DNA of 64,000 bases from assembly GCA_963770895.1 (NCBI GenBank), contig CAVYRF010000002.1, forward strand, positions 1,984,001-2,048,000, given 5' to 3'. The notes below the pieces were generated by a model. That model searched no databases, had not been told where the DNA came from, and saw only the letters and a list, made by a program, of their open reading frames with translations. Position 1 is the first letter of the stretch. Each line of letters opens with the position of its first letter. This document shows positions 64 through 15,411 of this stretch, piece after piece. Position numbers and translations under genes: made by a program. Source of the DNA: an uncultured Acidobacteriota bacterium (GTDB lineage: Bacteria; Acidobacteriota; Thermoanaerobaculia; Multivoradales; UBA5704).

Positions 64-94
64 AGGCGGTGCTTGCCGCCTGGGTAGGGCGCGG

Positions 95-186
95 GGACTT
101 TTTTGTTTCCAATTCGCGGCTGCACACGGCGCGCTGCGAGCCGGTCACCAGCACCCCACTGGTAGAGATTCGGCCCTCCCCTCCCC
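95..186 (-). repeat. Conserved non-coding motif, copy 1 (cos/packaging-site-like)
   Basis: Blocks GGACTTTTT, CCAATTCGCGG, CCGGTCAC and TAGAGATTC plus a C-tract recur with identical spacing at 9282-9377. It lies just downstream of the DUF2280 gene. Confidence 0.7.
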
Positions 187-683: not shown

Positions 684-1187
684 TCAGCTGGGTCGCGGTA
701 AGGCGGGCGACCTTGGGTGAGTGCTATTGGGCGAGGAGTCGGTCATGGTGCCGCGGAAGGTCTTCTTGAAAGCGTGGACCTGGCGCAGGTCGTCGGGGTT
801 GGTGAGGCCGAGCAGTGCGCGCAGCTCGCTGGCGCGATAGACGGGGCGCAGCTCGCCGGGGTCCACGTGGGCGTTGTCGCTGGCGAAGATGACGACCTCG
901 CCAAGGACACTGCTTCGCATTTCGACGACCAGGGCGGCGGTGGCGAAAACGTCCAGGGTCATGGCGCAGACCTCGTTCACCCGGAGGGGTGGCGCTGCTT
1001 CCGTGACGCCGGCCAGGGCCAGGGTGGGAGGAGACAGGAGGCGGAGGAGATTGGGCTTGTGCTTGCGCAGCTCCTCCAGCAGGTCTGGTGGGACGGCTTC
1101 GATCGGTCGAAAGCGAAGGCGGTTGCCGGAGGCCGACAGCTCGATTCCCCGGCGATCCAGCTCGGCAAGGATGCTCTCGGGACTCAT
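684..1187 (-). CDS. Hypothetical mobile-element protein with a TubC-N-like N-terminal domain
   Basis: Starts MSPESILAELDRRGIELSASGNRLRFRP...LLEELRKHKPNLLRLL. The ATG at 1187 is preferred over the longer ORF. Confidence 0.6.
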   Translation of the reverse strand: MSPESILAELDRRGIELSASGNRLRFRPIEAVPPDLLEELRKHKPNLLRLLSPPTLALAGVTEAAPPLRVNEVCAMTLDVFATAALVVEMRSSVLGEVVIFASDNAHVDPGELRPVYRASELRALLGLTNPDDLRQVHAFKKTFRGTMTDSSPNSTHPRSPALPRPS

Positions 1188-1460
1188 GGGTGTCAGACCT
1201 CGCCCCAGGCTGCCCCGTCGGCAGCAGGAGCTACGGCGGCGGAAACGACTGCTCCGCTCAAAGCCTGATTTCCCAGGCTTTCGGCAGCATCCCATTTCTG
1301 CCGCGCCCATTCTGCTTGGGTGGCGGGAATCCGCTCTTCGCAGAATGCAGATCCAGCAGGCGTTTCATGGGTGTCGCCATTTCCGCCGCCGTCCGCCGGC
1401 GGCTGGTGGTTGGGGAGACGCATTGAGGGGCCTATGCGGTGCCAGGCCACCGGAAGCCAG

Positions 1461-1489
1461 TTGACATGCCCTGTCCCGATAGTCACAAT
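1461..1489 (+). promoter_or_regulatory. Sigma70-type promoter of the toxin-antitoxin operon
   Basis: TTGACA-17 bp-CACAAT ends 10 bp before the ATG at 1500, implying a near-leaderless transcript. Confidence 0.6.
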
Positions 1490-1499
1490 TCTGGTCATC

Positions 1500-1823
1500 A
1501 TGGTGAGGCGGCGGCCCTATGCCCTGGTCTACGCTCCCGTGGTCAAGTCGCACCTGCGGGTGATCGAGCGACACCATTACTCGTTGATTCGCGCGAGCAT
1601 CGAGGAGCAACTGCGGTTCGAGCCAGGCATCGAAACCACGAACCGCAAGCCGTTGCAGCAGCCTGCCCTCATCGCGGCGCAATGGGAGCTGCGCTTCGGC
1701 CCCGACAATCGGTTCCGTGCCTTCTACGAGATCGACCACGAGAGCCGGAAAGTCTACATCCTGGCGCTCGGTGTCAAGGAGCGGAATCGTTTGCTCATCG
1801 GAGGAGAGGAGGTAGATCTTTGA
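1500..1823 (+). CDS. RelE/ParE-family toxin
   Basis: YALVYAPVVKSHL...WELRFGPDNRFRAFYEID...VYILALGVKERN; 107 aa; overlaps the downstream antitoxin. Confidence 0.8.
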   Translation: MVRRRPYALVYAPVVKSHLRVIERHHYSLIRASIEEQLRFEPGIETTNRKPLQQPALIAAQWELRFGPDNRFRAFYEIDHESRKVYILALGVKERNRLLIGGEEVDL

Positions 1824-2143
1824 AGATTGCATCGGTTGCAGAGGTCAAGGCTCAGTTCAGCGCCTACCTGAAGCAGAGCGAGCAGGGAGCGGTGATCGTC
1901 ACCCGCAACGGCAGGCCGGTAGCTGCGTTGCTGGCCATCCGGGACGACGAGGAGCTCGAAAACCTGGTCCTGGCGCACTCGCCTCGCTTGCGGTCGATCC
2001 TGGGTGCGGCACGGCAGCAGATCCGCGCCGGCGAAGGAGTCGATCACGGAGATCTTTGGCGCGAGATGGAGGCGGCGCCGCCCAAGGCGCGCCGCAAGAG
2101 CAAAGCCAGAAGGGTGCCTTCCGGCAAGCAGGGTAGTGCGTAG
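1820..2143 (+). CDS. Phd/YefM-family antitoxin
   Basis: The TTG start overlaps the toxin stop (TTGA). KIASVAEVKAQFSAYL...VIVTRNGRPVAALL is the Phd signature. Confidence 0.85.
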   Translation: MKIASVAEVKAQFSAYLKQSEQGAVIVTRNGRPVAALLAIRDDEELENLVLAHSPRLRSILGAARQQIRAGEGVDHGDLWREMEAAPPKARRKSKARRVPSGKQGSA

Positions 2144-2415: not shown

Positions 2416-3162
2416 CTAGGCGAAGTCGTCGCTCTGCCGCCAGCGGGTGTCCTCGATCGTAGCGCCGTCATCGAGATCGCTGATGGCGAGGTAGCCGCCG
2501 CGGCCGTGAGGCTTCATGCAGGCACGGGCTGCCCTCAACCGATCGCGGATCTTCTTCTCGTCCCAGAGACCGGCGTCAGCCAGCACCTTGGGCGTGCCCC
2601 CCTTGGGGATCGCGTAGAGAAGGAAGAGGTACTGGCCCCAGAAGTCCCGCTGCTGTCGCGGTGTCCCGACCACCTTCTTGTTCCGCCGCAGCACCACGTC
2701 AATCTGATACCGCCGGAGCTTGGCGCGGGCGATGGTCCACTGTGCGCGGAGATCCTTGGTGACGTCGAAGCTCACCAGATAGGTGCTGTCGGTGACGTCC
2801 GGGGGGGCCGAGCCTTCCCGGATCTCGGCGGCGGTCGTAACGGTCCCGAAGGACCGTACGAAGCGCAGGTCGTCCGGCCACATCTCGTTCGGGTCGTGGT
2901 AGCCGGCCACCAGGCCCCAGCGCTCCAACGCTGTCGGATCGGGGATGGTCTCGGGCTTGGGGGGCGCCCGCAGGACGTTCGGGTCGGGCTCGGGCGGTGG
3001 CGGCCGGCGCTCCTGCCATTCGGCCCGATAGGCCGGATTCCTGCGGAGGAACTGCCAGGCCCAGGCTTGGAGGGTCAGCCAGGCGGGGATCTCCTCCGCC
3101 TTGAACCTCTCGAACTCGGCCACCCAATCGATGGCTGGAGGCGCTTCGCCGGTCGTCGCCAA
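2416..3162 (-). CDS. DUF6499-like (WAWxFLRRN) transcriptional-regulator-domain protein
   Basis: AWAWQFLRRNPAYRAEW...ERWGL motif, typical of regulators of integrative elements. Confidence 0.65.
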   Translation of the reverse strand: MATTGEAPPAIDWVAEFERFKAEEIPAWLTLQAWAWQFLRRNPAYRAEWQERRPPPPEPDPNVLRAPPKPETIPDPTALERWGLVAGYHDPNEMWPDDLRFVRSFGTVTTAAEIREGSAPPDVTDSTYLVSFDVTKDLRAQWTIARAKLRRYQIDVVLRRNKKVVGTPRQQRDFWGQYLFLLYAIPKGGTPKVLADAGLWDEKKIRDRLRAARACMKPHGRGGYLAISDLDDGATIEDTRWRQSDDFA

Positions 3163-3230: not shown

Positions 3231-3279
3231 TGGTGCACCCAGGAGGATTTGAACCACCAACCTACAGATCCGTAGTCTG
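3231..3279 (-). repeat. att site: duplicated 3' part of tRNA-Arg
   Basis: 49-bp direct repeat of 12975-13023 with one mismatch. Confidence 0.95.
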
Positions 3280-3435: not shown

Positions 3436-4707
3436 ATGCCACGACGGGCGGCTGCGATCCTTACGGACATCGCCATTCGTAGGCTGCGGCCGACGGCGCA
3501 GCGCTATGAGATCCGGGACGCCTCCAGGCCGGGCTTCGGGGTCCGGGTGGAGGCGGACGGTCGCAAGGTGTTCTTCCAGCGTTATGGAACGCGCGGCGAA
3601 AGGCGCCTCACGCTGGGCGCCTACTCCGGGGCATTCGGACTGGCACAGGCGAGAGCCGCCGCGGACAAGGCGCGCGCCGATCTCGCGGCCGGCCTCGATC
3701 CCATCGAAATCAAGCGGCAGCGTCGCCAACTGGAGCACGATGAAAGGCAGGCGCAGAAGGCGGCGCGTGATGGCCGGCCGGCTCCGGGTACGTTTGCTGA
3801 GCTAGCGGAACGCTACCTGCGAGACGCAAAGCGCCGCCGCCGGGAGCGCAGCGTGCAGGAGGACGAACGCAAGCTGCGGGTGGAGGTGCTTCCAGGATGG
3901 GGCGCGAGGCGCGTCCGGGAGCTTCGGCGTGCCGATGTTCTGCGCCTGGTCGAGGACTCGCGAGAGCGCGGGGGCGTGTGCTCCAATCGGACCCTGGCGC
4001 TGGTCCGCGCGGTCTTTCAGTACGCGGTGGACCGCGAGGAACTGGATGCCAACCCCGCACTGCGCATCCCGCGGCGCTATCTTTTTGTAGAGAAACCCCG
4101 CGAGCGCGTCCTGAGCCGCGCCGAGCTGCGCTCTCTGCTTGCCGTTGTAGACGACCTTGGCCCCATCGTCGGCGGGGCCTTCCGCATGATTCTTGTGACC
4201 GCCCAACGTCCCGGCGAAGTACTCCGCATGCGATGGGAGGAGATAGGCCGAGACGAAGGCGGTCCCTTCTGGGAGCTTTCAGATGAAGTTGCAAAGGCGG
4301 GCCGCGGTCATCGCGTCCCGCTCTCTCGCCAGGCAATCGCCGTGCTCGAACCGCTCCGGCGAATCACAGACTCGACCCCATGGGTTTTCGCGTCACCCTC
4401 GCCGCGGACGGAAGGGCCGGTGCGCTGGCTTTCCCATGCGGCGAACCGGCTGAGGCAGAAATCCGGCGTCGATCACTTCACCCCTCACGATCTCCGGCGC
4501 ACGGCGGCCACCTGCATGGGCGAGCGAGGGGTGCGGCCTGACGTGATTGAGCGCGTCCTGAACCACGTGCAAGCCAAGATCGCGCGCACCTACAACCGAG
4601 CCACCTACGATGCAGAGAAGCGCCAAGCTCTTGCCATTCTCGGCGACCTCATCGATTCGCTTGCGTCGGGCGAAGAAACGCCGTCGAACGTGGTCTGGCT
4701 TGCATGA
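3436..4707 (+). CDS. Tyrosine recombinase/integrase with an N-terminal arm-binding domain (P4-like/DUF4102 type)
   Basis: N-terminal LTDIAIRRL...GFGVRV...RRLTLGAY; catalytic TAQRPGEV, HDLRRT and LNH...YN motifs. Confidence 0.95.
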   Translation: MPRRAAAILTDIAIRRLRPTAQRYEIRDASRPGFGVRVEADGRKVFFQRYGTRGERRLTLGAYSGAFGLAQARAAADKARADLAAGLDPIEIKRQRRQLEHDERQAQKAARDGRPAPGTFAELAERYLRDAKRRRRERSVQEDERKLRVEVLPGWGARRVRELRRADVLRLVEDSRERGGVCSNRTLALVRAVFQYAVDREELDANPALRIPRRYLFVEKPRERVLSRAELRSLLAVVDDLGPIVGGAFRMILVTAQRPGEVLRMRWEEIGRDEGGPFWELSDEVAKAGRGHRVPLSRQAIAVLEPLRRITDSTPWVFASPSPRTEGPVRWLSHAANRLRQKSGVDHFTPHDLRRTAATCMGERGVRPDVIERVLNHVQAKIARTYNRATYDAEKRQALAILGDLIDSLASGEETPSNVVWLA

Positions 4708-4763: not shown

Positions 4764-5441
4764 ATGGGCATCAACGAGATCAGGGCTAGCACAGAGAGAT
4801 CCTTCGACCGCTGGCTAGCGGCAATAAGCAAGTTCGACTACTTCTATATGACCGTTGCGGCCGGCCTCTTGGCGTTCATCGCCAAGGACTACCATCCCCG
4901 TAGACTTGACTCTTGGCTGGACTTCTTCGATCCGGTCTCGATGCTACTTCTCATCGCCGCTTTTACGGTAGGCGCGCTCCGCGTGCAATTGGCCACGCAC
5001 CTGCTGTACCTCGAAGTGGAACAAGGGAAATGTCTATTCAGGATTGAGAAGTACCGGCCGGGCCTCACTAGCCCGGTTCCTGGGGAGGACAATGCCACCG
5101 GCCAAGCAATTGGGAAGGTCGAAGCACAAGAGACAGTGGATGCGGAAAGGGCAAGGCTCAGGGCCATCACGGAGGCGACGGCGAAGGTGACTATGCGCGC
5201 CGCAAAATTTTACCAAGCCCGAGTCTGGCTGCTCGCGGCTGGAATAGGCTTGCTCTTGGTTGGCCGAATACTGACTCCCTACTTCCCTGCATTCGCGGGT
5301 ACCGTTTCCATTCAACAATCCCCAGCGGCGACGACTGGCCCTGCAGGCTCGGCCGTCGGCAGGTCCTCGCCTCAGCTCTTGCTGGAGCAGAAGCTGCCTG
5401 CGCCTGCGGCTGAACCTACACAGGTCCGCCACCCCAGGTGA
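4764..5441 (+). CDS. Hypothetical membrane protein (about 3 TM helices)
   Basis: 225-aa ORF with RBS GGAGGG and hydrophobic segments after KFDYF, at MLLLIAAFTVGAL and at VWLLAAGIGLLLVG. Confidence 0.65.
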   Translation: MGINEIRASTERSFDRWLAAISKFDYFYMTVAAGLLAFIAKDYHPRRLDSWLDFFDPVSMLLLIAAFTVGALRVQLATHLLYLEVEQGKCLFRIEKYRPGLTSPVPGEDNATGQAIGKVEAQETVDAERARLRAITEATAKVTMRAAKFYQARVWLLAAGIGLLLVGRILTPYFPAFAGTVSIQQSPAATTGPAGSAVGRSSPQLLLEQKLPAPAAEPTQVRHPR

Positions 5442-5626
5442 CAGAATTGATTCCCGCCGCCCGCCCCGACGGCTTGGTGGCGGGCAGTGCCGCGCTCTTC
5501 GCCAGCCGGCTGGGCGGCTCCCCGGCCGCTGGACGGCGATCGCGGCACCTGAAGCCGCCGCTCCTGAGCCAGCCGCGCTGCCACGGCTGGCTGCGGCACC
5601 CGGTCATTCGCGGTAGACTCCGCGAT

Positions 5627-6685
5627 ATGGAGCGGAGCATGACGGCGATCGATCTCTTCGCCGGCGCCGGGGGGGGCACGGAGGGTCTGAAGGCGGCCGG
5701 CTTTCGGGTAGTCGCTGCCGTCGAAAACGACCGGACTGCGTGCAGGACTTACCGGCTCAACCATCCTGGCGTCGTCCTGATTGAACGCGACGTTCGGCGA
5801 GTCACCGGATCGGATCTTCTGCGCGCGGCTGGGTTGCGGAAGGGTGAGACGTGCCTGCTCCAGGCCTGCCCGCCGTGTCAGACGTGGTCGTCGCTTGGCT
5901 CTGCATCCGCTGAGGACCCGCGGAACCAGCTCGTGTCCGTCGTGTCCGAGCTAGTTCGGAAGATCCGCCCCCGTGCCTTCGTGATCGAGAACGTTCCCGG
6001 TCTGCGATTCGATGCGCGGCTCGCTGCTCTCGTTGCGGAGGCTGGACGCCAGCGGTTCCGAGTGCGGGCCTATGTCGTCGACGCGCAGGACGTTGGGGTG
6101 CCGCAACGCCGGCGCCGCCTGATTGTCATCGGCATCCGCAGTCGGCGGCAGGTGGAACTGCCCGAGTCGCTTTTGGACCTGCTGCCAGCCGAATTCGACT
6201 GCACCGCTCGGACAGTCCGCGATGCCATCGGCCACCTGCCAACGCCTGGCGTTGGCGACGATCAACTGCACCGCGGCAGAACCTTGACCGACCTCGTTAC
6301 GCAGCGCGTGGCCGCTCTTCCGCTGGCCGGGCGAAGGACCGACCTTCCAGAGCACCTTCAGCTTGCTTGCCACCAGAAGCTTAAGGGCCGGGTCGCAACC
6401 GCGGCGTATGGACGTATGGCGGCAACCGAAGTTGCTCCCACCCTGACGACTAGGTGCACCACTCCGGCGTGCGGCTCGTACGTGCACCCCTCCGAGAACC
6501 GGGGCATCACCCTGCGCGAGGCCGCGTTGCTCCAGACTTTTCCCGCGAGTTACCTTTTCAGCGGTGGCTACGGTGCGATCGAGCGGCAGATTGGCAACGC
6601 CATTCCCGTCCGCCTCGCCGAGGCTGCGGCCATGGCTGTGCGGACGCTTCTCGCGCCAGCGGGCGAAAGGCGACTCGGGACGTGA
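5627..6685 (+). CDS. dcm: DNA (cytosine-5)-methyltransferase
   Basis: Motifs DLFAGAGG (I), CPPCQ (IV), ENVPG (VI), PQRRRR (VIII), RGITLREAALLQTFP (IX) and QIGNAIP (X). Confidence 0.95.
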   Translation: MERSMTAIDLFAGAGGGTEGLKAAGFRVVAAVENDRTACRTYRLNHPGVVLIERDVRRVTGSDLLRAAGLRKGETCLLQACPPCQTWSSLGSASAEDPRNQLVSVVSELVRKIRPRAFVIENVPGLRFDARLAALVAEAGRQRFRVRAYVVDAQDVGVPQRRRRLIVIGIRSRRQVELPESLLDLLPAEFDCTARTVRDAIGHLPTPGVGDDQLHRGRTLTDLVTQRVAALPLAGRRTDLPEHLQLACHQKLKGRVATAAYGRMAATEVAPTLTTRCTTPACGSYVHPSENRGITLREAALLQTFPASYLFSGGYGAIERQIGNAIPVRLAEAAAMAVRTLLAPAGERRLGT

Positions 6686-8724
6686 CGCCTAACTCTACGA
6701 ACGGGCCGTCCGCCACCACGACGGTGCCCGAGGCGCCGCTCGTCCTCAAATTCGGCGGCTCCCTAGTCGAGCAGCTCGGGGCGCAGCTATACCCCAGCGT
6801 GACCGCCACAGTGGCAGAGCTCCTATCCAATGCCTGGGACGCGGAGGCCAAGAACGTCTGGATCACAATGCCGTTTGGCGTGTGGCATGCCGACGACCGC
6901 ATCGTGGTGACGGACGACGGACATGGCATGACGCGATACGAGGCGCAGCACTCGTACCTCGTCGTGGGCCACAAGCGGCGCGGGGAAGGCCGAGGCGCGC
7001 TGTCTGCGAGTGGTCTGCGCCGCGTTCACGGACGCAAGGGCATCGGCAAGCTGGCGGCATTCGGCACGGCTGGCATCCTCGAATGCTCGACGCTAAAGAA
7101 CGGCCAGCACGTCGCCTTCAGGTTGAACTACGACGAAATCCGCAAGCTCGATCCATCGGCAGACTACACGGTAGAAGACGCGGTGGATCTTTCGGCACCG
7201 ACGAATCCAGAGAGCGGTTGCCCGCTCGAGCACGGCACCCGCATCAGCCTCTCGCGGCTGCTGCAGAAGAGGGCGCTCGGCGAGGGCCAGTTTTTCCGGT
7301 CCATGGCTCGGCGGTTCGCGATCTCGGCCGACGAGATGGCCGTGCGCATCAACGGTACGCCGCTTCAGCGGTTCGACATGAGCGTCCAATTCAGGTTCCC
7401 GCCGGACAGCATCCCCGAAGGCGTGGCGATCGCCAACGGCTGGGCGGTCGAGTCTATCGCGCCCGGCCACGAGGTGCGCTGGTGGATCGGTTTCACCGAG
7501 AAGCCCTTGGAAGACGAGACGCTTCAGGGCATCTCCGTCCTCGCCAATCAGAAGATGGCCCAGCGGCCGTTTCTATTCGACCGCTCGCGCGGCACTGAGG
7601 GACAGCTCGGACAGGAGTACCTCGTCGGCGAGGTGCAGGCCGATTGGATCGACGCCGGCACTGACGTCGAGGACGACCTCATCCAATCCAACCGAGACCA
7701 GCTCCAGATCGAAGACGACCGCCTCACGGTTTTCGTCGAGTGGGGACGCAGGCGCTTGGCGTGGGCACTGAAGGAGCGCAACCGGTTGCGGCAGGACGCC
7801 GCCGTGCGGGGCTTCGAGGCAAGCCAAGAGCTGCTCCAGCTGTTCGACCCCTACACGAGAACAGAGCGGGCACAACTTCTGCGGCTCGCGGTCAACGCCT
7901 CAAAGCTGCCGGAGATGACCGGCGACTCCCTCCTAGAGCTCATGCAGTCGGTCGTAGACGCGAGATCGGACGCCGCTGTGCGCCAACTGATCGAAGAGAT
8001 CGAAGCATCCGACGAAGCGGTGCAGCCCCGCATGTGGGGACTGGTCCGCCAGTTCGGCCTGATCGATGCCCGGCGTACCTTCAGCATCATCCAGGCTCGG
8101 CTGAAGACGATCAGCAAGCTGAAGGAAGCCCTTGCCGCTGGCGCCAAGGAGGTGCCCGACCTACATGACATCGTCAAGAAGGATCCTTGGCTCCTCGACC
8201 CTCGCTGGCACCTCCTCGACGACGAGGTCGACCTGACGAAGTTGGGCATCGACTTCCAGCCGGCGACCGACGAGACCGGCCACCGGCTCGACTTCATGTT
8301 CGCGCTCATGCCCAAATCGCCCGCCCCACTCGACGAGATCATCGTTGTGGAGATCAAGCGCGGATCCGATCTGCAGGGGAAAAAGCGCGTCGCAACCGAG
8401 GAGGAGGTCAACAAGTTCCACTCGTACGTCCTTGCGGCCAGGGAGCACGAGCAACGCAACGGCTCGCAAGCAAAGGTGCGGGGCCTCATGATCACCCAGG
8501 GCTACACGGCAAACGGCAACCGCGTCAAGCAGAGCCTGGAGGAGAACCCGACGATTGAGCTTCGCTTCAGGACGTGGGACCGCGTCATCGCCGAAACCGA
8601 GCGCATGCACCTCGGATGGCTGGAGGTTTCCCGGGCAAGGAGCCGAGCCGAGGAGCCGGAGCCTGAGTTGGTCGACGAGGATGCCGTGGTGGAAGCACCG
8701 TCTCCTGACCATCCTCAGAGGTGA
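6682..8724 (+). CDS. GHKL (HSP90/MORC-like) ATPase fused to a C-terminal PD-(D/E)xK-like nuclease
   Basis: ELLSNAWDA, DDGHGM, GRKGIGKLA and HGTRI motifs; C-terminal RLDF...VVEIKRG; the GTG start overlaps the dcm stop (GTGA). Confidence 0.85.
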   Translation: MTPNSTNGPSATTTVPEAPLVLKFGGSLVEQLGAQLYPSVTATVAELLSNAWDAEAKNVWITMPFGVWHADDRIVVTDDGHGMTRYEAQHSYLVVGHKRRGEGRGALSASGLRRVHGRKGIGKLAAFGTAGILECSTLKNGQHVAFRLNYDEIRKLDPSADYTVEDAVDLSAPTNPESGCPLEHGTRISLSRLLQKRALGEGQFFRSMARRFAISADEMAVRINGTPLQRFDMSVQFRFPPDSIPEGVAIANGWAVESIAPGHEVRWWIGFTEKPLEDETLQGISVLANQKMAQRPFLFDRSRGTEGQLGQEYLVGEVQADWIDAGTDVEDDLIQSNRDQLQIEDDRLTVFVEWGRRRLAWALKERNRLRQDAAVRGFEASQELLQLFDPYTRTERAQLLRLAVNASKLPEMTGDSLLELMQSVVDARSDAAVRQLIEEIEASDEAVQPRMWGLVRQFGLIDARRTFSIIQARLKTISKLKEALAAGAKEVPDLHDIVKKDPWLLDPRWHLLDDEVDLTKLGIDFQPATDETGHRLDFMFALMPKSPAPLDEIIVVEIKRGSDLQGKKRVATEEEVNKFHSYVLAAREHEQRNGSQAKVRGLMITQGYTANGNRVKQSLEENPTIELRFRTWDRVIAETERMHLGWLEVSRARSRAEEPEPELVDEDAVVEAPSPDHPQR

Positions 8725-9233
8725 CGATGCAAGAGCCGTGCGGCACACTCGCCCCAGATCCCGAGCTGTCCCACAAGACGCGGAAGGTGCGTCCCCCATC
8801 AGCCCGCGACCGAGCGCGGCTGGTTGCTCAGCGGCGGCACGAGACGGCGCCCGAGATGGCCGTTCGTCGTGAGATGCACCGGCTCGGGCTTCGCTATCGC
8901 ACGCACGTTGCCGTTCTCGATGGGACGCGCAGGACCGTCGATATCGCGTTTACCAGGGTGCGCGTGGCCGTGGACGTTCGCGGCTGCTGGTGGCACGGCT
9001 GCCCCGTCCACGGATCGTTGCCGCGAGCGAACACCGAGTGGTGGGCGGCTAAGTTCGCTGCCGTACGGAGGCGCGACGAGGACACCGAGGTACGGCTGAG
9101 GCAAGCCGGATGGCATCTCGTCGTCGTCTGGGAACACGAGGACCCCGCCATCGCCGCACTGCGCATCGACGCCGCCGTCCGGGGCGGGGGCCTCGCGCGC
9201 CTCCTCCCTACATCCAGTCTCGACCTAGTTTAG
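8721..9233 (+). CDS. vsr: Very-short-patch repair endonuclease
   Basis: ETAPEMAVRREMHRLGLRYR...DIAF...VDVRGCWWHGCP...GWHLVVVWEHE; overlaps the upstream stop. Confidence 0.92.
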   Translation: MTMQEPCGTLAPDPELSHKTRKVRPPSARDRARLVAQRRHETAPEMAVRREMHRLGLRYRTHVAVLDGTRRTVDIAFTRVRVAVDVRGCWWHGCPVHGSLPRANTEWWAAKFAAVRRRDEDTEVRLRQAGWHLVVVWEHEDPAIAALRIDAAVRGGGLARLLPTSSLDLV

Positions 9234-9281
9234 CCGTAGTGCGAGGATCTCCTGCGCGGAACCCCCGTGTGCAGCTCCCGA

Positions 9282-9377
9282 GGACTTTTTGTTTTCCAAT
9301 TCGCGGGCGCACCCACGCTGCCGCGGTCCGGTCACTGGCTTAGTGGTGCTAGAGATTCAGACCCCCCTACTCCCCCC
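9282..9377 (-). repeat. Conserved non-coding motif, copy 2 (cos/packaging-site-like)
   Basis: Ungapped match of conserved blocks to 95-186 at offsets 0, 14, 46 and 68. Confidence 0.7.
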
Positions 9378-9577
9378 GACAAGCGTCAGATGCTCGCCAC
9401 GCTCGCCTAGCGAAGGGTGGAAACGGCTCCCGGACCTACTAGCCGCTAGCCTGCCGTGGTGGTCGTCATGCAGGGATCGCAGATGGTGAGGCAAGACACC
9501 GAACAGGCCTCAGTTGGGCGAGCTCCTGGCGCTTCGCGCAGCACCTGGGCGGTGAGCGTGGCTAGCGTCTCGCGGTT

Positions 9578-10189
9578 TGTTGCCGGCTGAGCAGACCCGC
9601 TGCTATTCGGTGAAGAACGCGTGTCACCGCCGCTGCTTAAATACCGCTGCTGGAGGGCGCCCTCGGCGTCGGCTGGTATTGAACCAGCGGTGGAGGGGTC
9701 GAAAGCGTAGGAACTCTGTCCGAACTGTTCCGCAGACTGGGCAGACTGGCGGCCGCGGTTCGGTATCGGGCGAGAGGAGGCCGGCAGGCTGGGGCGTATT
9801 GCGACACTGCTCCGTCACGACCGGTCGGCGCTCCGATTGGCGGTACCGGGCTTGGCGCTCTGCATGAAGCAGCCGTCCGCGTGGCGTAGCCTGGTGGCGC
9901 CTGTTGGATGCTCGCTGCTTCTCCCTGCGTGCGGCTCGCGCACACACCTTGCCGCAGTAGATGTTGCCTCGGTCGCACCCCGAGCAGATCGCGACCAATG
10001 CGCGACACCTGAGACAGCAGTACAAACGCTGAGCCTTCATGGTAGAGCCAGTCTACCGCCAGCCGCCGGCCCGCCGGTCCCCCTTGTCCACCCCCCCGGC
10101 GGGGATGATGCTGAGGGAACTTCACCACCTCCGATGGCTGAGAACTGCGTTCTTCACCGGATAGCAGCGGGTCTGCGCAGCCGCCAACA
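9578..10189. mobile_element. 612-bp non-autonomous transposable element (TGT...ACA ends)
   Basis: 43-bp TIRs (9578-9620 and 10147-10189, 3 mismatches), CGGTT target duplication (9573-9577 and 10190-10194), no transposase. Confidence 0.92.
9624..10040 (-). CDS. Cys-rich, basic zinc-finger-like protein (resembles IS21-associated accessory ORFs)
   Basis: CLRC...ICSGCDRGNIYCGKVC...RRHQATPRGRLLHAERQARYR...CPVC; it is the only convincing ORF between the TIRs. Confidence 0.7.
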   Translation of the reverse strand: MKAQRLYCCLRCRALVAICSGCDRGNIYCGKVCARAARREKQRASNRRHQATPRGRLLHAERQARYRQSERRPVVTEQCRNTPQPAGLLSPDTEPRPPVCPVCGTVRTEFLRFRPLHRWFNTSRRRGRPPAAVFKQRR

Positions 10190-11132
10190 CGGTTGAATGC
10201 CAGTTTGGGGGACCGCTTCTGCATTTGGTTTCTCCTTTCGCCGAAAAGCCCTGATCAGACGAGATGACCGCGCGGCTTGAGGCGCCAATCGGCCCCACCA
10301 CCGCGCGGCAGAATTCTCGCATGAAAGAGGAGACGTGGGCGTCAAGGGTTCCGCGCCTGTCGCTAAGACCTGCACAGGACCACCACCAAAGTTCACAGAA
10401 TCGATTCCCTGAGGTAGGCAATCCGCGACGCCATGCTCATTTATCTACAGTGATTTACGCCTTGTTAGGTGCGATGGCTTGGGTGCGAGGCTGTGGTGGT
10501 TGGTAGAGACTCCGACCACCACAGCCAGCAACGCCAAATCCCCCGATCAACCTGGGCACGACACTGCCGACGATAAGGTATGCCCCGGCGCGCCCAGGCA
10601 AGCCCCGGCGGAAGAGAAGGGAAGGATGGCGGCGGGGCGGTTGGACGAACGCTGGAATGGTTGGCCCGATTCGTCGGATTACGGGCGGGCGTGCTGGCAG
10701 GTGACTGTCGCGGCGGGCACACCCCCTCCCATGCCTGGGAGGTGAGGTGTTAGGCGGGCGGCTGGGAAACCGCAGGGAAGGGCCTTTCAGGGCAGCCCTC
10801 GCCTTTCCGGGTTAGTCTTGTTTGCCGGGTCTAGCCCGGCGCCCAGGCATTCGACCGGGACGTGGGGGTCGAGGTGCTTGCGCACTCTCGGACGAGATCA
10901 AATACTCGTCGCCGTTGCCCGGATTTCCCCGTGCCTACCACTTTGCCGGCAGCGATCATTGCCAGCCCTGTTGAGCCTTTTCGGTCTTTCACCTTGGACA
11001 AGGCTTTTCCTATCGTAACCATCGCAACGCGGCCCGGCCCACTCTCCACAGTCGGCCGGGCCTATAGTCTTCAGCGGACCTGAAATTTCCGTCCAACAAA
11101 GCGTCAGTCGTGCAGCGGGGCCTTGCCGGTCC

Positions 11133-11342
11133 TCAGCCTGCGGCGGTCGTTGGAATCGCTCGCGGGCCGCGGGGAAGACTGGCGAGGAACTTGTCCAGGT
11201 CTTCGCGGAACCAGCCGGATGCATGCTCGCCCAGAATGACTCGCGGAGGGAGCTGTCCCGCTCGTTCGAGGCGATATAGAGACGCCCTGCTGAGGCCGAT
11301 GTAGACCGCTGCGGCGGCAGGGCGCAAAACTCTCTGTAGCAT
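11133..11342 (-). CDS. alpA: AlpA-family regulator/excisionase
   Basis: VLRPAAAAVYIGLSRASLYRLERAGQLPPRVILGEHASGW; RBS AAGGAGA. Confidence 0.88.
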   Translation of the reverse strand: MLQRVLRPAAAAVYIGLSRASLYRLERAGQLPPRVILGEHASGWFREDLDKFLASLPRGPRAIPTTAAG

Positions 11343-11479
11343 CAAGATTCTCCTTGCTTGGCAGGCAGTGCGCCATGCGCTGCCTGGGACGCTCGGGGTA
11401 TCAATCGCACGCGTAAATTGAAACATGTCGGCTTGCCCCTTTGCAAGTTTGCTCATAATTCAATCGATGTCCTTCACAA

Positions 11480-11495: not shown

Positions 11496-11713
11496 CAGGA
11501 ACGCAATGTGCCAGGGCGGCTCATGGAGGATTAGCGGGTCCGCCGCCGGCAGCTCGCTCGATCTCAAAGTGAAGCATGGGAGGCTCGCCTTGTGCCACAT
11601 CCAATTGCAGCCTGCCCTGTGCAAAACTGGTGTAAGCCGGCCTTCGCCAAGTTGCTGGGTCTGGAAGGCCGCGGAGAGCAAATCCACGTTCACCGTATCG
11701 AACTGGCCTTGGA

Positions 11714-12241
11714 TCATTCGGCCTCCAGTGCCGGCGCGGCGGCGGATGCAGCGGCGGAAGCGCCGATCCACGGGGCGCGCCAGCTGCCGGTCTGTAGGTC
11801 CATGAAGGCCAGGCAGCAGTGAGCCACAGCCTTGCCGCACTCCTGAGCCAGCCGCAGGATGTCCTTGTGGGATCTCGCCGGCGGCGTCCGGATGTCCAGC
11901 GCCCGAGTGTCCAGCGGCAGGGTGTCCGGCTCCCTGGTGTCCGGCGGCAGGGTGCCGTCTTCCGGCGGCCCTTCCTGGCCGGCTGGCCTTTGCTGGGCTC
12001 GGTAGAGATCCGTCAGGGTCAAACCCATGGCGGCCACGATGCGCCCGAGGGTGCGCGCACAGGGCTGGCGGATGCCCTGCTCGTATCGGGCCAGGGCCGT
12101 CGAGGTGCACCCGACCTGCGCGGCAAGCTGCCGCAGGGTCATACCCGTATCTCGGCGAAGTCTCAGGATCGCCAGCCCAACGAGCTGTGCTTCGTCGGCG
12201 TTCCGCTTCCGATGCCTCCCCTTTGCGGGTTGGGCCTTCAT
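11714..12241 (-). CDS. XRE-family HTH regulator
   Basis: ILRLRRDTGMTLRQLAAQVGCTSTALARYEQGIRQP; contains 15-bp internal repeats at about 11891-11959. Confidence 0.85.
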   Translation of the reverse strand: MKAQPAKGRHRKRNADEAQLVGLAILRLRRDTGMTLRQLAAQVGCTSTALARYEQGIRQPCARTLGRIVAAMGLTLTDLYRAQQRPAGQEGPPEDGTLPPDTREPDTLPLDTRALDIRTPPARSHKDILRLAQECGKAVAHCCLAFMDLQTGSWRAPWIGASAAASAAAPALEAE

Positions 12242-12597
12242 GACAGCTCTCCTTCGATTGAACCGGCCAGGTCGCCTACCTTTGCGGCGAGCTTGCCGGC
12301 GAAGTGGGCCAGGTCGTCGTCGGCCGGTTCCAGGCAAGAATCCTGGGCGGACTTGCGCACGGAGCGCAGGAAGCCTTCGACGAAGCGCAGCTCGGCAGCC
12401 GCGGCCCGCAGCTCGGCGCGGGTGATCGAGTCTTTGTCGGGGAAGTCGGTCGTCTCGACGGCCATGTCGTAGATGAGCCTCCCGACCTGACGGAGGGCTT
12501 CGCGGGACACGGGGTCGTCAATGCAGATCAGCGTCGTTTCCCGGAACGAATCGGCGGGGTTCCAGGGGTGAGGGGTAGACTGCGGGTGGTCGGGCAT
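12238..12597 (-). CDS. Hypothetical helical protein, coupled to the XRE gene
   Basis: 119 aa, RBS GGAGG, ATGA overlap with the XRE gene. Confidence 0.7.
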   Translation of the reverse strand: MPDHPQSTPHPWNPADSFRETTLICIDDPVSREALRQVGRLIYDMAVETTDFPDKDSITRAELRAAAAELRFVEGFLRSVRKSAQDSCLEPADDDLAHFAGKLAAKVGDLAGSIEGELS

Positions 12598-12887
12598 GGG
12601 ATGCCTCCGTGCTCGGCAAGTCCCCGGCGGGAGCTCGTTACTTCCGCCGGGGGCGTCTGACTGAAACGGGGGCGGCGCGTGCCGCCCCTCTGTGCTCTGG
12701 GTTCAGGTGGGAACGTGGCCTGCCGCACCAACGGGCCGGATCGTCTTGCTGCCAGCGCTGGCACCGGTAGCGCGCCGCGCGGCTGGACCGGCTGGGCGAC
12801 CACAGAATGTATACCTGCCGGCGGCTTGGAGCGGGTGGGAATGACGGCGTGCCTAATGCCAGGGGCGGCCGTCAACCGTCGTTCGTT

Positions 12888-12974: not shown

Positions 12975-13051
12975 TGGTGCACCCAGGAGGATTTGAACCC
13001 CCAACCTACAGATCCGTAGTCTGTCGCTCTATCCAGTTGAGCTATGGGTGC
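12975..13051 (-). tRNA. tRNA-Arg (anticodon ACG)
   Basis: GCACCCATAGCTCAACTGGATAGAGCGACAGACTACGGATCTGTAGGTTGGGGGTTCAAATCCTCCTGGGTGCACCA folds as a cloverleaf with an encoded CCA. Confidence 0.97.
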
Positions 13052-13253: not shown

Positions 13254-15411
13254 TCAGGGTTGCTGGATGGCTTGCTTGGGGTCGATGCGGGTGGCGGTGA
13301 GGGCGGGGATGAGGATGGCGAAGGCGGCGGTGGCGGTGAGGATGGGGATGACGAGGGCGAAGGTGAGGGGGTCGGTGGGGGTGACGCCGTGGAGGGAGCC
13401 TTGGAGACCTCGGGTGGTGGCGAGGGCGACGGCGGTGCCGGCGAGGAGGCCGGCGGCGACGGGGGGGACTGCTTGGTGGGCGAGGAGGAGGAGGATGGTG
13501 GGGCGGGTGGCGCCGAGGGTCATGCGGATGCGATTTCGCGGGTGCGGAGGCCGGCGAAGTGGGCGATGTCGCCGTAGATGCCGACGGCGGCGAGGAAGAG
13601 GCCGAGGAGGCCTAGGGCTAGGAGGAGAAGGGTGTGGAAGCGCTCTTCGGCGGTGGCGCCGCGGAGGGAGTCGTCCATGGTGGTGAGGGTGAGGGGCAGG
13701 GTGGGGTCGACGGCGGCGACGGTGGCGCGGGTGGCGGTGGCGAGGGTGCGGGGATCGGGGCCGCGGGCGATCAGGGTCATGGTGCGCTGGGTCCAGGTCC
13801 AGGTGTCGGCGGGGGCCTGGTCGATGGGGAGATAGAACTCGGGAGCGAGGTCGTGCGCGGGGCCGCGGGTGTGGACGTCGCCGACGATGCCGATGATGGT
13901 CTTTGAGCGGGTGTCGGTGGGGGTGCTTTCGCAGCAGAGGATCTGTTTGCCCAGGAGGTTGGCTTGGCTCCAGGTGCGGCGGGCTTGGTGGGCGAGCTGC
14001 TGGCTGATGATCATGACCCGCTCTCGGCCGGCGAGGTCGTCGCGGGTGAAGGTGCGGTGCGTCGCAGGTGAAGGTCGCTGCGGATCAGGAGGCCGGCGCC
14101 CACCAGGAGGGTGAGCGCCAGACCGACTTCGGCGGCGACCAGGAGGCTGCGCAGGCGGTCGCGCGCGGGGCCGGTGCCGGCGGCGCCGGCACGCAGCAGG
14201 GTTTGCGGGTCCTGGCGTGCGGAGCGCAGGGCGGGCGCCATGCCGAAGAGGAGGCTGGCGGCAAGGGAAACCAGGAGGGTGAAGAGCAGGACGCTGGCGT
14301 CGATGCGGGTTTCGCCGAGGCGCGGAATGCCGGCGGGCGCCAGCGGGAGGAGCAGGCGCACGGCGGCTTCGGCGAACGCCAGGCCGAGGGCGCCGCCGGC
14401 CAGGGCGAGGACGGCGCTTTCGCCGAGGAGCTGGCGCACGATGCGGCTGGCGCCGGCGCCCACGGCGGCGCGGATGGCAAGCTCGTGGGCGCGCCCGGAG
14501 CCGCGGGCCAGCAGGAGGCTCGCCACGTTGGCGCAGGCGATGAGCAGGACGAGGCCGACGGCTCCCAGCAGGACTAGCAGGCGCCGGCGGTAGGAACCGA
14601 TCAGATATTCGGCCAGGGGCTGGATGCGCACGCCGGTCCTGCCGTAGTTGGCATCGGGGTAGCGTTGCGCAAGGTGGCGCATGGCGACGCTGAGCTCGGC
14701 TTGCGCCGCGGCGGGGCTTGCATGGGGTTGCAGCAGGCCCAGCACATCGAGGAAATGGTTGTCGTGCTGGCTGCGCTCGGCCGGGGTAAAGGCGATCGGC
14801 AGCCAGAGCTCTTCCTGGGAGAGCGTGGGATCGAAGCCCGCGGGCATCACTCCGATGACTTTGAAGGCGCGCCCCGACAGGTGCAGGGTGCGTTGCAGGA
14901 CGGCGGGGTCGGAGCCCAGGCGGTTGCGCCACAGAGCGTCGGAGATCACGACCACGGGTTCGGCCGCCGGCTGGTCTTCTTGCGCGGTGAAGGTGCGGCC
15001 GAGCCGCGGTGGCACACCAAAGACGGCGAAGAAGTCGTGGGTGACCGGTGCCGCCAGGACCCTTTCCGGGCGGTCTCCGTCGGCCAGGTTGAGGACGGTG
15101 AAGCGTTGCTGCCGCAGGGCGTAGCGCACGTCGTCGTGCAGCTCGCCGAGCAGGATGCGCCAGCGCCAGCGCCGTTCGGTGCCTTGGGCGATGCGGGCGC
15201 AGGCGCTGGCGACCTGGGTGCGGTCGTCGAAGCGCTGGGCCGCTTCGGCACGCGCCTGCGCCTGGGTCATGCCGGATTCTTCCAGCTCCCGCGCCAGCAT
15301 CGCGACGTGGAAATCGATCTCTTCGGCGACCTGGTCGTCGATCTTGGGGCCGAGCAGGCGGGCGCGCAGGCGACGCTCGAAGGTTTGCCAGGTGTGTTCT
15401 TTGCTTTTCAT
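13254..15411 (-). pseudogene. ADOP/MacB-like duplicated ABC permease, broken
   Basis: VLLIACANVASLLLARG and ELAIRAAVGAG motifs. Homology is spread over three frames (shifts near 14050 and 13525) and the first TM segment appears deleted. Confidence 0.8.

What the first reader, a model, noticed from the sequence alone, without database searches (positions are those of the whole stretch)
9446..10224. Hidden orphan RiPP precursor gene on the island, visible only after excising an insertion
Seen: deleting 9578-10189 and one CGGTT copy joins an ATG with a strong RBS (AAAGGAGA) in frame to give MQKRSPKLAFNRETLATLTAQVLREAPGA-RPTEACSVSCLTICDPCMTTTTAG*. Known: KLxLN(K/R)ETL..L leaders followed by Ser/Thr/Cys-rich cores characterise a group of class I lanthipeptide precursors in Gram-negative phyla. 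Here the core has C-x3-C-x3-C-x2-C and 8 Ser/Thr. No LanB, LanC, LanM or radical-SAM gene is in the window. Inference: the island carried a stand-alone substrate that borrows host maturation enzymes, placed beside defence cargo and the cos-like site. It could be a mobile 'precursor-only' peptide module with an antiphage, signalling or antagonistic role.
Basis: partly seen in the sequence, partly recalled or inferred. Interest (0 to 1): 0.85.

Follow-up and report, generated by a model that had tools for sequence, protein, structure and literature searches.

The report
Lanthipeptide precursor gene split by transposon
A small gene for a lanthipeptide-type peptide precursor, one of about 96 scattered through this bacterium's genome, sits on a tRNA-linked mobile island and has been broken by a 612-base jumping element, so it is a recently dead copy of a very large gene family rather than a unique hidden module.

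Summary
Window 9578-10189 is a 612-bp element with 54-nt imperfect terminal inverted repeats and a 5-bp target duplication (CGGTT). Removing it and one duplicate copy restores a 53-codon minus-strand ORF behind an AAAGGAGA ribosome-binding site.

The restored peptide belongs to a real family:
- A leader HMM built without it scores it 26.4 bits, E 2.4e-5. The 3' half alone scores 12.8 bits.
- It aligns across the junction with metagenomic peptides at up to 52% identity.

It is not an isolated orphan. The genome holds 95 intact paralogues, and only 5 lie within 10 kb of a LanB or LanC gene. The genome has a full LanB with an adjacent LanC, two LanM genes, further LanC-like genes, three of them beside a precursor, and C39 transporters. 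In relatives the same leader sits in tandem beside LanC-LanB.

The insert is a non-autonomous IS21-family derivative. The gene lies inside a 9.8-kb tRNA-Arg island that carries a restriction-modification system.

Verdict: a recently inactivated class-I-type precursor. The antiphage and "module" roles are unsupported.

The parts
10190..10224 (-). 5' part of the precursor gene: start codon and the first 11 to 12 codons (N-terminal half of the leader), including the right copy of the target duplication
   Evidence: It matches family-HMM positions 1-12 once joined to the 3' part.
10231..10238 (-). Ribosome-binding site AAAGGAGA, 6 nt upstream of the ATG
   Evidence: The 7-mer AAAGGAG occurs upstream of 17 of 96 family genes.
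9446..9577 (-). 3' part of the precursor gene: rest of the leader, a G-A leader end, a Cys/Ser/Thr-rich core and the stop codon, including the left copy of the target duplication
   Evidence: translation P0001; the family HMM hits this fragment at positions 11-32, E 0.018.
9573..9577 (.). Target-site duplication CGGTT, left copy
10190..10194 (.). Target-site duplication CGGTT, right copy
9578..10189 (-). 612-bp non-autonomous IS21-family-derived element. It keeps both ends and a small accessory ORF and has no transposase.
9578..9631 (.). Left terminal inverted repeat (begins TGTTG)
   Evidence: repeat I1
10136..10189 (.). Right terminal inverted repeat (ends CAACA)
   Evidence: repeat I1. An 86%-identical 117-nt end lies next to a truncated IstA-like gene at C2:5085161-5085277.
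9624..10040 (-). 138-aa Cys-rich (CxxC...CxxC...CxxC) ORF carried by the element. It has no Pfam, NCBIfam or PADLOC family.
   Evidence: no family; two metagenome homologues at 41-48% identity; 8 invariant Cys columns in 5 aligned sequences. Paralogues lie upstream of IstA/IstB.
3231..3279 (.). attL: 49-nt copy (98%) of the 3' part of tRNA-Arg
   Evidence: (D4)
12975..13051 (-). tRNA-Arg(ACG). Its 3' 49 nt (12975-13023) form attR.
3436..4707 (+). Tyrosine integrase of the island
   Evidence: Phage_integrase 1.8e-19, Arm-DNA-bind_3, Phage_int_M
5438..6685 (+). C5 cytosine DNA methyltransferase (island cargo)
6454..8724 (+). HATPase_c_3-type protein that matches PADLOC type II restriction-enzyme models (island cargo)
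8721..9233 (+). Vsr-like mismatch endonuclease (island cargo)
11133..11456 (-). AlpA-type regulator or excisionase-like gene of the island
11714..12597 (-). Xre-type HTH gene (11714-12337) and the overlapping 119-aa ORF (12238-12597). This module recurs at about 16 further places in the genome, several next to integrases.

Best explanation
Window 9446-10224 (minus strand) was a 53-codon gene for a class-I-type lanthipeptide precursor.

Anatomy. The leader has the LxLx(K/R)x5L form, here LxFxRx5L, and ends in G-A. The core has 4 Cys and 8 Ser/Thr.

Family. It is one copy of a family with about 96 copies in this genome and up to 51 in relatives. Members are scattered far from the maturation genes.

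Inferred mechanism for an intact copy (not shown):
1. The leader is recognised by the genome's LanB dehydratase (1177 aa, C2:5.18 Mb) and by one of its LanC cyclases.
2. Ser/Thr residues are dehydrated and Cys residues add to them to form thioether rings.
3. A C39-peptidase ABC exporter cuts the leader at the G-A/G-G site.

What happened here. The copy lies inside a 9.8-kb integrase-bearing island inserted at tRNA-Arg, beside a methylase, restriction enzyme and Vsr set. A 612-bp non-autonomous IS21-family derivative inserted after codon 12 and made a 5-bp duplication. The start codon now reads into the element as a 195-aa chimeric frame. The core-encoding part has lost its leader N-terminus, RBS and promoter. 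The gene is therefore a pseudogene.

Timing (inferred). The two element copies are 99.7% identical and neither gene half has acquired a stop or frameshift, so the event is recent.
For: Shown:
- Element ends, TIRs and TSD. The second copy has its own TSD. Metagenome contigs break exactly at 9578 and 10189.
- The restored peptide scores 26.4 bits, E 2.4e-5 at Z = 108,811, against a leader HMM built from 79 other genome members. The 3' half alone scores 12.8 bits.
- It aligns over residues 1-48 with P0123 at 52% identity and with 11 other listed library representatives at 35-45%.
- 95 intact paralogues of median length 54 aa, median 4 Cys and 6 Ser/Thr in the last 28 residues. The window peptide has 53 aa, 4 Cys and 8 Ser/Thr.
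- NF038153 (class I lanthipeptide leader L1a) matches 5 places in the genome at E <= 0.01, 3 of them over its cut-off. All 5 are family members. It also scores one of 9 tested members over the cut-off.
- Host enzymes: LanB with both N and C domains next to LanC, two LanM genes, 14 LANC_like matches and 9 Peptidase_C39 matches, one in an ABC exporter beside a LanC.
- In relatives the same leader sits next to LanC-LanB. G027 has five tandem precursors, then LanC, then LanB on one strand (L041). G027:C11 and G030:C127 show the same arrangement.
- Co-occurrence over 41 genomes. Of 25 genomes with the family, 25 have a Lant_dehydr_N match, 25 have LANC_like and 18 have DUF4135. G018 (100% complete) has 31 precursor matches and no DUF4135. 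Of the 16 without the family, 6, 7 and 3 have these matches. Related genomes are not independent samples.
- IS21 link. Paralogues of the element's small ORF lie directly upstream of IstA (rve + Mu-transpos_C_2) and IstB (IstB_IS21, 7.4e-52) in L031, and upstream of a truncated HTH-bearing IstA-like ORF in L012. The end of the L012 element is 86% identical over 117 nt to the window element's right end.

Inferred: the modification chemistry, the cleavage site and the recency of the insertion.
Against: - The restored peptide is a weak member: rank 90 of 97 in the HMM list (95 members plus the restored peptide and its 3' half). Its second leader position is F rather than L, and P-G-A replaces the commoner A-G-G.
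- Its 3' fragment has no NCBIfam or Pfam hit. The joined peptide could not be given to those libraries.
- No family precursor was found within about 16 kb of this genome's own LanB-LanC pair.
- One paralogue lies 3.5 kb from a LanM, so the leader is not exclusive to class I neighbourhoods.
- Only one full LanB for about 96 substrates is unusual for class I.
- No chemistry, expression or export was observed.
- No uninterrupted allele of this gene was found anywhere.
- The terminal TGT and the 4-8-bp TSD as IS21 traits are recalled, not taken from a call.
Confidence: 0.8

Rival explanations
1. One reading: the island carried a self-contained mobile precursor-only module. The substrate gene moves horizontally and uses whatever LanBC the recipient has. 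It has an adaptive antagonistic, signalling or antiphage role linked to the neighbouring defence cargo.
For: - The gene lies between attL and attR of an integrase island.
- Family loci are somewhat enriched near integrases or the recurrent HTH/orf119 island module: 8 of 87 loci within 5 kb against 3.2 expected, 88 of 5000 permutations. Examples are two precursors about 1 kb from integrases at C2:1.35 Mb and C2:5.27 Mb.
- The 27-kb low-GC zone at this tRNA holds two more intact precursors.
- Hourigan et al. 2025 (PMC12715929, abstract seen) report defence genes near class II lanthipeptide clusters.
Against: - About 79 of 87 loci are not near island markers, so the family is mainly chromosomal.
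- The count includes the window's own locus, which was chosen beforehand.
- Integrase alone is not enriched: 4 of 87 against 2.0 expected, 682 of 5000 permutations.
- None of the matches listed for 40 relatives covers the precursor part of the island; 50 further matches were not listed.
- The gene is now broken.
- No observation links it functionally to the restriction-modification genes, which are on the opposite strand.
- No evidence bears on an antiphage role.
Confidence: 0.12
2. The family is not lanthipeptide at all. It would be a set of double-glycine-leader, Cys-rich secreted peptides that form disulfides, or substrates of another RiPP enzyme such as a radical-SAM enzyme. The window gene would then be a broken copy of that.
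For: - 90 of 95 members are more than 10 kb from any LanB or LanC.
- Most members fall below the NF038153 cut-off.
- The genome has 9 C39 peptidase matches and 31 radical-SAM matches, one about 1 kb from a family member on C1.
Against: - Canonical operons of tandem precursors, LanC and LanB with the same leader occur in relatives.
- The family co-occurs 25 of 25 with both LanB and LanC.
- Three members in this genome lie 93-316 bp from LanC genes.
- Cores are rich in Ser/Thr as well as Cys.
Confidence: 0.07
3. The interrupted locus still yields a product. Candidates are the 32-aa GTG-initiated frame at 9446-9544 read from inside the element, or the 195-aa chimera that begins at the precursor's start codon.
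For: Both frames are open. The element's ORF and the precursor lie on the same strand, so read-through transcription is possible.
Against: - The 32-aa frame lacks the leader half that carries the LxLx(K/R) motif, so it scores only 12.8 bits.
- No RBS or promoter was found for it (one search found no promoter-like site in 9150-10700).
- The chimera has no family match (one search tested the ORF138 frame only; the chimera itself was not tested).
Confidence: 0.01

Closest known systems
Class I lanthipeptide precursors with the LxLxKx5L leader ending in Gly-Gly (Bacteroidetes type, pinensin family; NCBIfam NF038153 lant_leader_L1a)
   Same: - Same leader architecture, a GG/GA end and a Ser/Thr/Cys core.
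- C39 exporters are present.
- In relatives the precursors sit beside LanC-LanB.
   Different: - Here almost all copies lie far from LanB and LanC.
- There are about 96 copies per genome.
- The lineage is a 71% G+C soil bacterium. The only named relative seen is a Thermoanaerobaculia MAG with a 58%-identical paralogue.
- This copy is interrupted.
- Most members score below the NF038153 cut-off.
Prochlorosins and their promiscuous class II synthetases ProcM/SyncM in marine picocyanobacteria
   Same: Many precursor genes with a conserved leader and hypervariable cores. Many are encoded far from the enzyme (PMC7268733, passage). The leader has a GG end and a C39 transporter (PMC8524650, passages).
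   Different: - Prochlorosins use a Nif11-type leader and a single LanM.
- Here no Nif11 or other Pfam family matched 9 tested members.
- Here LanB and LanC, not LanM, track the family. G018 has 31 precursor matches and no DUF4135.
- There are several LanC paralogues.
IS21-family insertion sequences and their non-autonomous (MITE-like) deletion derivatives
   Same: - Long imperfect terminal repeats beginning with TGT.
- A 5-bp target duplication at two independent sites.
- Homologous end and small ORF next to IstA/IstB genes elsewhere in the genome.
   Different: - No IstA or IstB inside the element.
- It retains a conserved 138-aa Cys-rich ORF of no described family.
- No full-length partner with closely matching ends was found in this genome. 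The nearest (L012) is truncated.
tRNA-integrated genomic islands that carry restriction-modification systems
   Same: Tyrosine integrase, AlpA-type gene, 49-nt att repeat of the tRNA 3' part, lower G+C than the genome, and a methylase, restriction enzyme and Vsr as cargo.
   Different: It carries a RiPP precursor gene with no maturation gene.

Membership tests
Class I lanthipeptide precursor, LxLxKx5L / lant_leader_L1a type | Leader motif LxLx(K/R)x5L near the N-terminus | tested here: met
   After excision the leader reads LxFxRx5L, with F in place of the second L. The motif definition comes from PMC7268733 (passage). The HMM of 79 genome paralogues scores it 26.4 bits, E 2.4e-5.
Class I lanthipeptide precursor, LxLxKx5L / lant_leader_L1a type | Score over the NF038153 curated cut-off (22 bits) | tested here: inconclusive
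   The 3' fragment alone gave no hit. The joined peptide could not be handed to the library. Paralogues reach 23.5-28.5 bits in 4 cases and fall below the cut-off in the rest.
Class I lanthipeptide precursor, LxLxKx5L / lant_leader_L1a type | Leader ends in a double-glycine-type site (GG/GA) and a C39 protease or exporter is available | tested here: met
   The leader ends P-G-A. G-A ends occur in several paralogues. There are 9 Peptidase_C39 matches in the genome, one in an ABC exporter next to a LanC. Cleavage itself was not observed.
Class I lanthipeptide precursor, LxLxKx5L / lant_leader_L1a type | Core with Cys plus Ser/Thr able to form (methyl)lanthionine | tested here: met
   4 Cys and 8 Ser/Thr in the last 28 residues, against family medians of 4 and 6.
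Class I lanthipeptide precursor, LxLxKx5L / lant_leader_L1a type | LanB and LanC encoded beside the precursor | tested here: not met
   No LANC_like or Lant_dehydr_N match lies in the window. The nearest LanC is more than 700 kb away. Both enzymes exist in the genome and lie beside same-leader precursors in relatives.
Class I lanthipeptide precursor, LxLxKx5L / lant_leader_L1a type | Dehydration and thioether rings in the mature peptide | not testable with these tools
   Needs mass spectrometry.
Prochlorosin-like one-enzyme, many-substrates system | Many same-leader precursors encoded far from the synthetase | tested here: met
   95 intact members, 90 of them more than 10 kb from any LanB or LanC match.
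Prochlorosin-like one-enzyme, many-substrates system | Nif11-type leader and a LanM (class II) synthetase as the cognate enzyme | tested here: not met
   No Pfam family, Nif11 included, matched 9 members at E <= 1 beyond chance-level hits. DUF4135 was not found in 7 of 25 family-bearing genomes, including G018 (100% complete, 31 precursor matches).
IS21 family (the inserted element) | Terminal inverted repeats and a short target duplication made on insertion | tested here: met
   54-nt TIRs at 85%. 5-bp TSDs CGGTT and CTTCT at the two copies. That IS21 ends begin with TGT and give 4-8-bp TSDs is recalled, not from a call.
IS21 family (the inserted element) | Encodes IstA (DDE transposase) and IstB (AAA+ helper) | tested here: not met
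   The only credible ORF is the 138-aa Cys-rich protein. Its paralogues lie upstream of IstA and IstB in L031 and upstream of a truncated IstA-like ORF in L012. It is therefore filed as a non-autonomous derivative, not as an IS.
tRNA-integrated genomic island | Integrase plus direct repeats of the tRNA 3' end that bound a compositionally distinct segment | tested here: met
   D4: 49 nt, 98%; G+C 0.61-0.68 against 0.707 for the genome.

The most novel reading that the evidence does not exclude
This lineage runs a class I (LanB/LanC) counterpart of the prochlorosin system. One LanB and a set of LanC paralogues would mature a library of about 50-100 hypervariable precursors encoded all over the genome. 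Part of that library would be exchanged between strains as enzyme-less precursor-only cargo on tRNA-integrating islands. Small IS21-derived elements would inactivate individual copies. The window shows one cycle of this gain and loss.
Probability: 0.3. Interest if true: 0.7.

Novelty: new member of a known kind. Interest (0 to 1): 0.45.

Why it matters
The split gene itself is an ordinary pseudogene of a recognisable kind. Its context is more interesting.

- A high-G+C bacterium, whose DNA turns up in soil metagenomes, carries about 96 same-leader lanthipeptide-type precursor genes. Its relatives carry up to 51. The same profile finds 3,754 cluster representatives in a library of 1.84 billion proteins.
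- Almost all copies are detached from the single LanB.
- Genome-mining pipelines that look only within a few genes of a LanC domain would miss nearly all of them. PMC7268733 says this of its own 7-gene limit.
- If the remote precursors are really matured in trans, this would be a class I analogue of the prochlorosin library, with a large source of new ring topologies.
- The island-borne and transposon-broken copies would show how such libraries turn over.

Tried and rejected
- Uninterrupted allele. A word-indexed search of 5.8 billion proteins with the 44-aa 3' fragment found no candidate. A DNA search of 40 relatives with the whole island found integrase, tRNA, HTH-module and element matches among those listed but none over the precursor part; 50 further matches were not listed. 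Laying contigs of 4 soil runs showed no joint that skips the element. Uncovered parts prove nothing, and X1-X3 belong to one study that may include the source sample.
- Expression. No RNA holder was listed.
- Shared promoter. A sigma-54-like pattern occurred upstream of 2 of 96 family genes, and no enriched 7-mer appeared apart from G+C-rich words and the RBS. The sigma-70 scan found no site in 9150-10700. Neither result is informative for this lineage.
- Precursor next to this genome's own LanB-LanC pair. No family-HMM hit lies in C2:5165000-5200000.
- Family for ORF138. No Pfam, NCBIfam or PADLOC match.
- Profile-based locus scan. The single-protein scan returned one named locus.
- First regex screen. 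It was too strict and mixed in false hits, so it was replaced by the HMM.
- Leader-end dipeptide count. The regex is non-greedy and unreliable, so it is not used.
- Literature. Four full-text searches turned up no paper describing a many-copy dispersed class I precursor family in such a lineage. This covers only the held open-access library. Supplementary tables of PMC7268733 were not seen and could list related precursors.
Full report
OBSERVATION

The window's minus strand has an ATG at 10224-10222, preceded by AAAGGAGA six bases upstream. Twelve codons later the frame runs into a 612-bp segment, 9578-10189.

This segment has 54-nt ends that are 85% complementary inverted repeats (I1). It is flanked by CGGTT on both sides, at 9573-9577 and 10190-10194. 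Deleting the segment plus either CGGTT copy (617 bases) gives one open 53-codon frame that ends at 9446. Deleting 612 or 607 bases gives early stops.

The element ends are confirmed in two independent ways:
- A second copy at C2:5252172-5252783 (99.7% identical) is flanked by a different 5-bp duplication, CTTCT.
- Contigs of soil-metagenome runs leave the element exactly at 9578 and at 10189 into unrelated DNA (runs X1 and X5). Contigs of X1 and X3 bridge the left junction exactly as in the window.

THE GENE IS REAL AND BELONGS TO A VERY LARGE FAMILY

A tblastn search of the restored peptide, joined by coordinates inside a script, against the laid genome found dozens of small frames. Each has a basic N-terminus, an LxLx(K/R)-ETL-xx-L stretch, an A-G-G-like end and then a Cys/Ser/Thr-rich tail.

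I built a leader HMM as follows:
- 19 seeds were picked by regular expression from the genome.
- One rebuild used 79 members.
- The search ran against 108,811 six-frame segments.
- It returned 95 intact members at E <= 0.01 on all three contigs.

The window gene was not used to build the model. Joined, it scores 26.4 bits (E 2.4e-5 at Z = 108,811). Its 3' half alone scores 12.8 bits. It ranks 90th of the 97 sequences scored (95 members plus the restored peptide and its 3' half), so it is a divergent member.

It also aligns across the junction (residues 1-48) with a metagenomic representative at 52% identity, and with eleven other listed representatives at 35-45%. Its length is 53 aa against a family median of 54. 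It has 4 Cys against a median of 4, and 8 Ser/Thr against a median of 6.

WHAT KIND OF PRECURSOR IT IS

NCBIfam NF038153, named class I lanthipeptide leader L1a, gives these results:
- It scores one of nine tested members over its cut-off and three more below it.
- It matches five places in the genome at E <= 0.01, three of them over the cut-off. All five are family members.

Walker et al. 2020 (PMC7268733, passages seen) describe the LxLxKx5L leader, often ending in Gly-Gly and accompanied by a C39 protease, for class I precursors of Bacteroidetes.

The genome encodes:
- a full LanB (1177 aa, with Lant_dehydr_N 6.5e-165 and Lant_dehydr_C 8e-70) convergent with a 536-aa LanC
- two LanM genes, each DUF4135 plus LANC_like
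- 14 LANC_like matches in all, three of them 93-316 bp from a family precursor
- nine Peptidase_C39 matches, one in an ABC exporter beside a LanC

The strongest evidence for class I comes from relatives. In G027 five tandem same-leader precursors precede LanC and LanB on one strand (locus L041). G027:C11 and G030:C127 show the same arrangement.

Co-occurrence over the 41 genomes searched:

| Genomes | n | Lant_dehydr_N | LANC_like | DUF4135 |
|---|---|---|---|---|
| With the family | 25 | 25 | 25 | 18 |
| Without the family | 16 | 6 | 7 | 3 |

G018 is 100% complete, has 31 precursor matches and has no DUF4135. Related genomes are not independent samples, so these counts are descriptive only.

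Distance of the 95 intact members from any LanB or LanC match:

| Within | Members (of 95) |
|---|---|
| 5 kb | 4 |
| 10 kb | 5 |
| 50 kb | 18 |

Distance from the enzymes is therefore the norm for the family. No family member was found within about 16 kb of the genome's own LanB-LanC pair.

The family is a trait of the lineage. It was found in 20 of 24 other genomes of the same taxonomic family, with up to 51 matches per genome against 83 in this genome under the same search. A profile of nine members finds 3,754 cluster representatives at E <= 0.001 in 1.84 billion proteins.

THE ISLAND

A tRNA-Arg(ACG) gene lies at 12975-13051 on the minus strand. Its 3' 49 nt recur at 3231-3279 at 98% identity, and nowhere else nearby. 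These repeats bound a 9.8-kb segment with G+C of 0.61-0.68, against 0.707 for the genome.

Island contents, in order:
- tyrosine integrase, 3436-4707
- unknown ORF
- C5 methyltransferase, 5438-6685
- HATPase-type protein matching PADLOC type II restriction-enzyme models, 6454-8724
- Vsr, 8721-9233
- the split precursor
- AlpA-type gene, 11133-11456
- Xre-type HTH gene with an overlapping 119-aa ORF

The low-G+C zone extends left to about C2:1,970,000 and holds two more intact precursors.

The HTH/orf119 module recurs at about 16 further places, some next to integrases. I collapsed the 96 genes into 87 loci and used 23 of the 24 integrase matches, dropping the one below the cut-off. Results within 5 kb:

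| Marker | Observed (of 87) | Expected | Permutations reaching observed (of 5000) |
|---|---|---|---|
| Integrase or HTH/orf119 module | 8 | 3.2 | 88 |
| Integrase alone | 4 | 2.0 | 682 |

The window's own locus is among the eight. Some copies therefore do ride in accessory DNA, but the enrichment is modest. None of the matches listed for the 40 relatives covers the precursor part of the island; 50 further matches were not listed.

THE INSERT

The only credible ORF of the insert is 138 aa, Cys-rich, and without a Pfam, NCBIfam or PADLOC family. It has two metagenomic homologues at 41-48% identity and eight invariant Cys columns in a five-sequence alignment.

Its paralogues in this genome lie directly upstream of transposase genes:
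- In L031 the neighbours are IstA (rve plus Mu-transpos_C_2) and IstB (IstB_IS21, 7.4e-52).
- In L012 the neighbour is a truncated HTH-bearing IstA-like ORF. The adjacent end of the L012 element is 86% identical over 117 nt to the window element's right end.

The insert is therefore a deletion derivative of an IS21-family element. It keeps both ends and the small accessory ORF and has lost IstA and IstB.

Its second copy sits at the 3' end of another island's integrase gene. Related ends occur in four same-genus genomes and in soil metagenomes at other sites.

CONSEQUENCE

The start codon now reads into the element as a 195-aa chimeric frame. The core-encoding part has lost the leader's recognition half, its RBS and its promoter. 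The gene is a pseudogene.

The two element copies are near-identical and both gene halves are undamaged. From this I infer that the inactivation is recent.

MECHANISM: SHOWN AND INFERRED

Shown:
- the gene structure
- family membership
- the presence of the enzymes
- synteny in relatives
- the insertion

Inferred:
- that intact remote copies are matured in trans by LanB and LanC
- that they are cut at the G-G/G-A site and exported by a C39 transporter

COMPARISON WITH KNOWN SYSTEMS

The gene is a member of the LxLxKx5L-leader class I precursor kind by leader, leader end and core. It fails the usual criterion of an adjacent LanBC, and its NF038153 score could not be tested.

The system as a whole works like the prochlorosin library, with many remote precursors and few enzymes (PMC7268733, passages; PMC8524650, passages). 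It is not a member of that family. It has no Nif11-type leader, and LanM does not track it.

Four full-text searches found no description of such a dispersed class I library. Supplements were not visible.

VERDICT

- The locus is a recently broken copy of a very large, mostly enzyme-remote lanthipeptide precursor family.
- It is carried on a tRNA-Arg island with a restriction-modification system.
- There is no evidence for a special antiphage or signalling role.

Noticed in passing
Whole genome G000 (for example C2:3876774-3876929, C2:4839379-4839915, C1:312412-312858, C3:72358-72525): There are 95 intact same-leader Cys/Ser/Thr-rich precursor genes on all three contigs, 90 of them more than 10 kb from any LanB or LanC. 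Relatives carry up to 51. This is larger than the finding itself.
   Followed up: yes
window 9624-10040 (-); L012 1304-1780 (-); L031 about 2684-2869 (+): A small Cys-rich (CxxC...CxxC...CxxC) protein of no described family is conserved upstream of istA in IS21-like elements, and is retained by the non-autonomous 612-bp derivative. It may be an accessory DNA-binding factor.
   Followed up: partly
window 9637-10224 (-): The insertion creates a 195-aa chimeric frame that starts at the precursor's RBS and ATG and reads into the element. The element's own ORF lies on the same strand and could be transcribed from the precursor's promoter.
   Followed up: no
window 76-148 and 9263-9335: A 73-nt direct repeat (71% identical) shares the core GGACTTTTT(T)GTTT(T)CCAATTCGCGG. 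One copy lies between Vsr and the precursor's stop codon, the other about 3 kb left of attL. Its function is unknown.
   Followed up: no
window 11632-12688; also C2:1978709-1979478, C2:5639801-5640654, C2:5267252-5267563, C1:1429077-1429924 and others: The Xre-HTH plus 119-aa-ORF module recurs at about 16 further places in the genome and in same-genus relatives, several next to tyrosine integrases. It looks like the regulatory module of an island family.
   Followed up: partly
C2:1,970,000-1,997,000 (the window begins at C2:1984001): A 27-kb low-G+C zone (0.60-0.69) lies at the tRNA-Arg locus. Only its right 9.8 kb is bounded by att repeats. The left part holds two intact family precursors and a second HTH module, which suggests older decayed islands in tandem.
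   Followed up: partly
window 684-1310 (-) and 1439-2143 (+): An ORF with a TubC_N docking-domain hit (1.9e-10) and an ORF with a PhdYeFM antitoxin domain (2e-10) lie in the low-G+C stretch left of attL.
   Followed up: no
window 13277-13726: Degenerate 39-nt G-rich direct repeats (GGTGGCGGTGAGG...) coincide with a very strong positive GC skew (0.31-0.46) just right of the tRNA.
   Followed up: no
L034 (C1:1563000-1572000): An FHA-domain sigma-54 activator and a TPR protein lie next to a LanC and a family precursor. They could be a regulator of one sub-cluster.
   Followed up: no
C1:999998-1000453 and C1:1001314-1001574: A radical-SAM gene lies about 1 kb from a family precursor. One paralogue also lies 3.5 kb from a LanM with an ABC transporter between them (L038). 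The leader may therefore serve more than one enzyme class.
   Followed up: no
L011 2011-2622 (C2:5252172-5252783): The second copy of the 612-bp element is inserted at the extreme 3' end of another island's integrase gene, next to an HTH-module homologue. Both known copies therefore sit in islands.
   Followed up: partly
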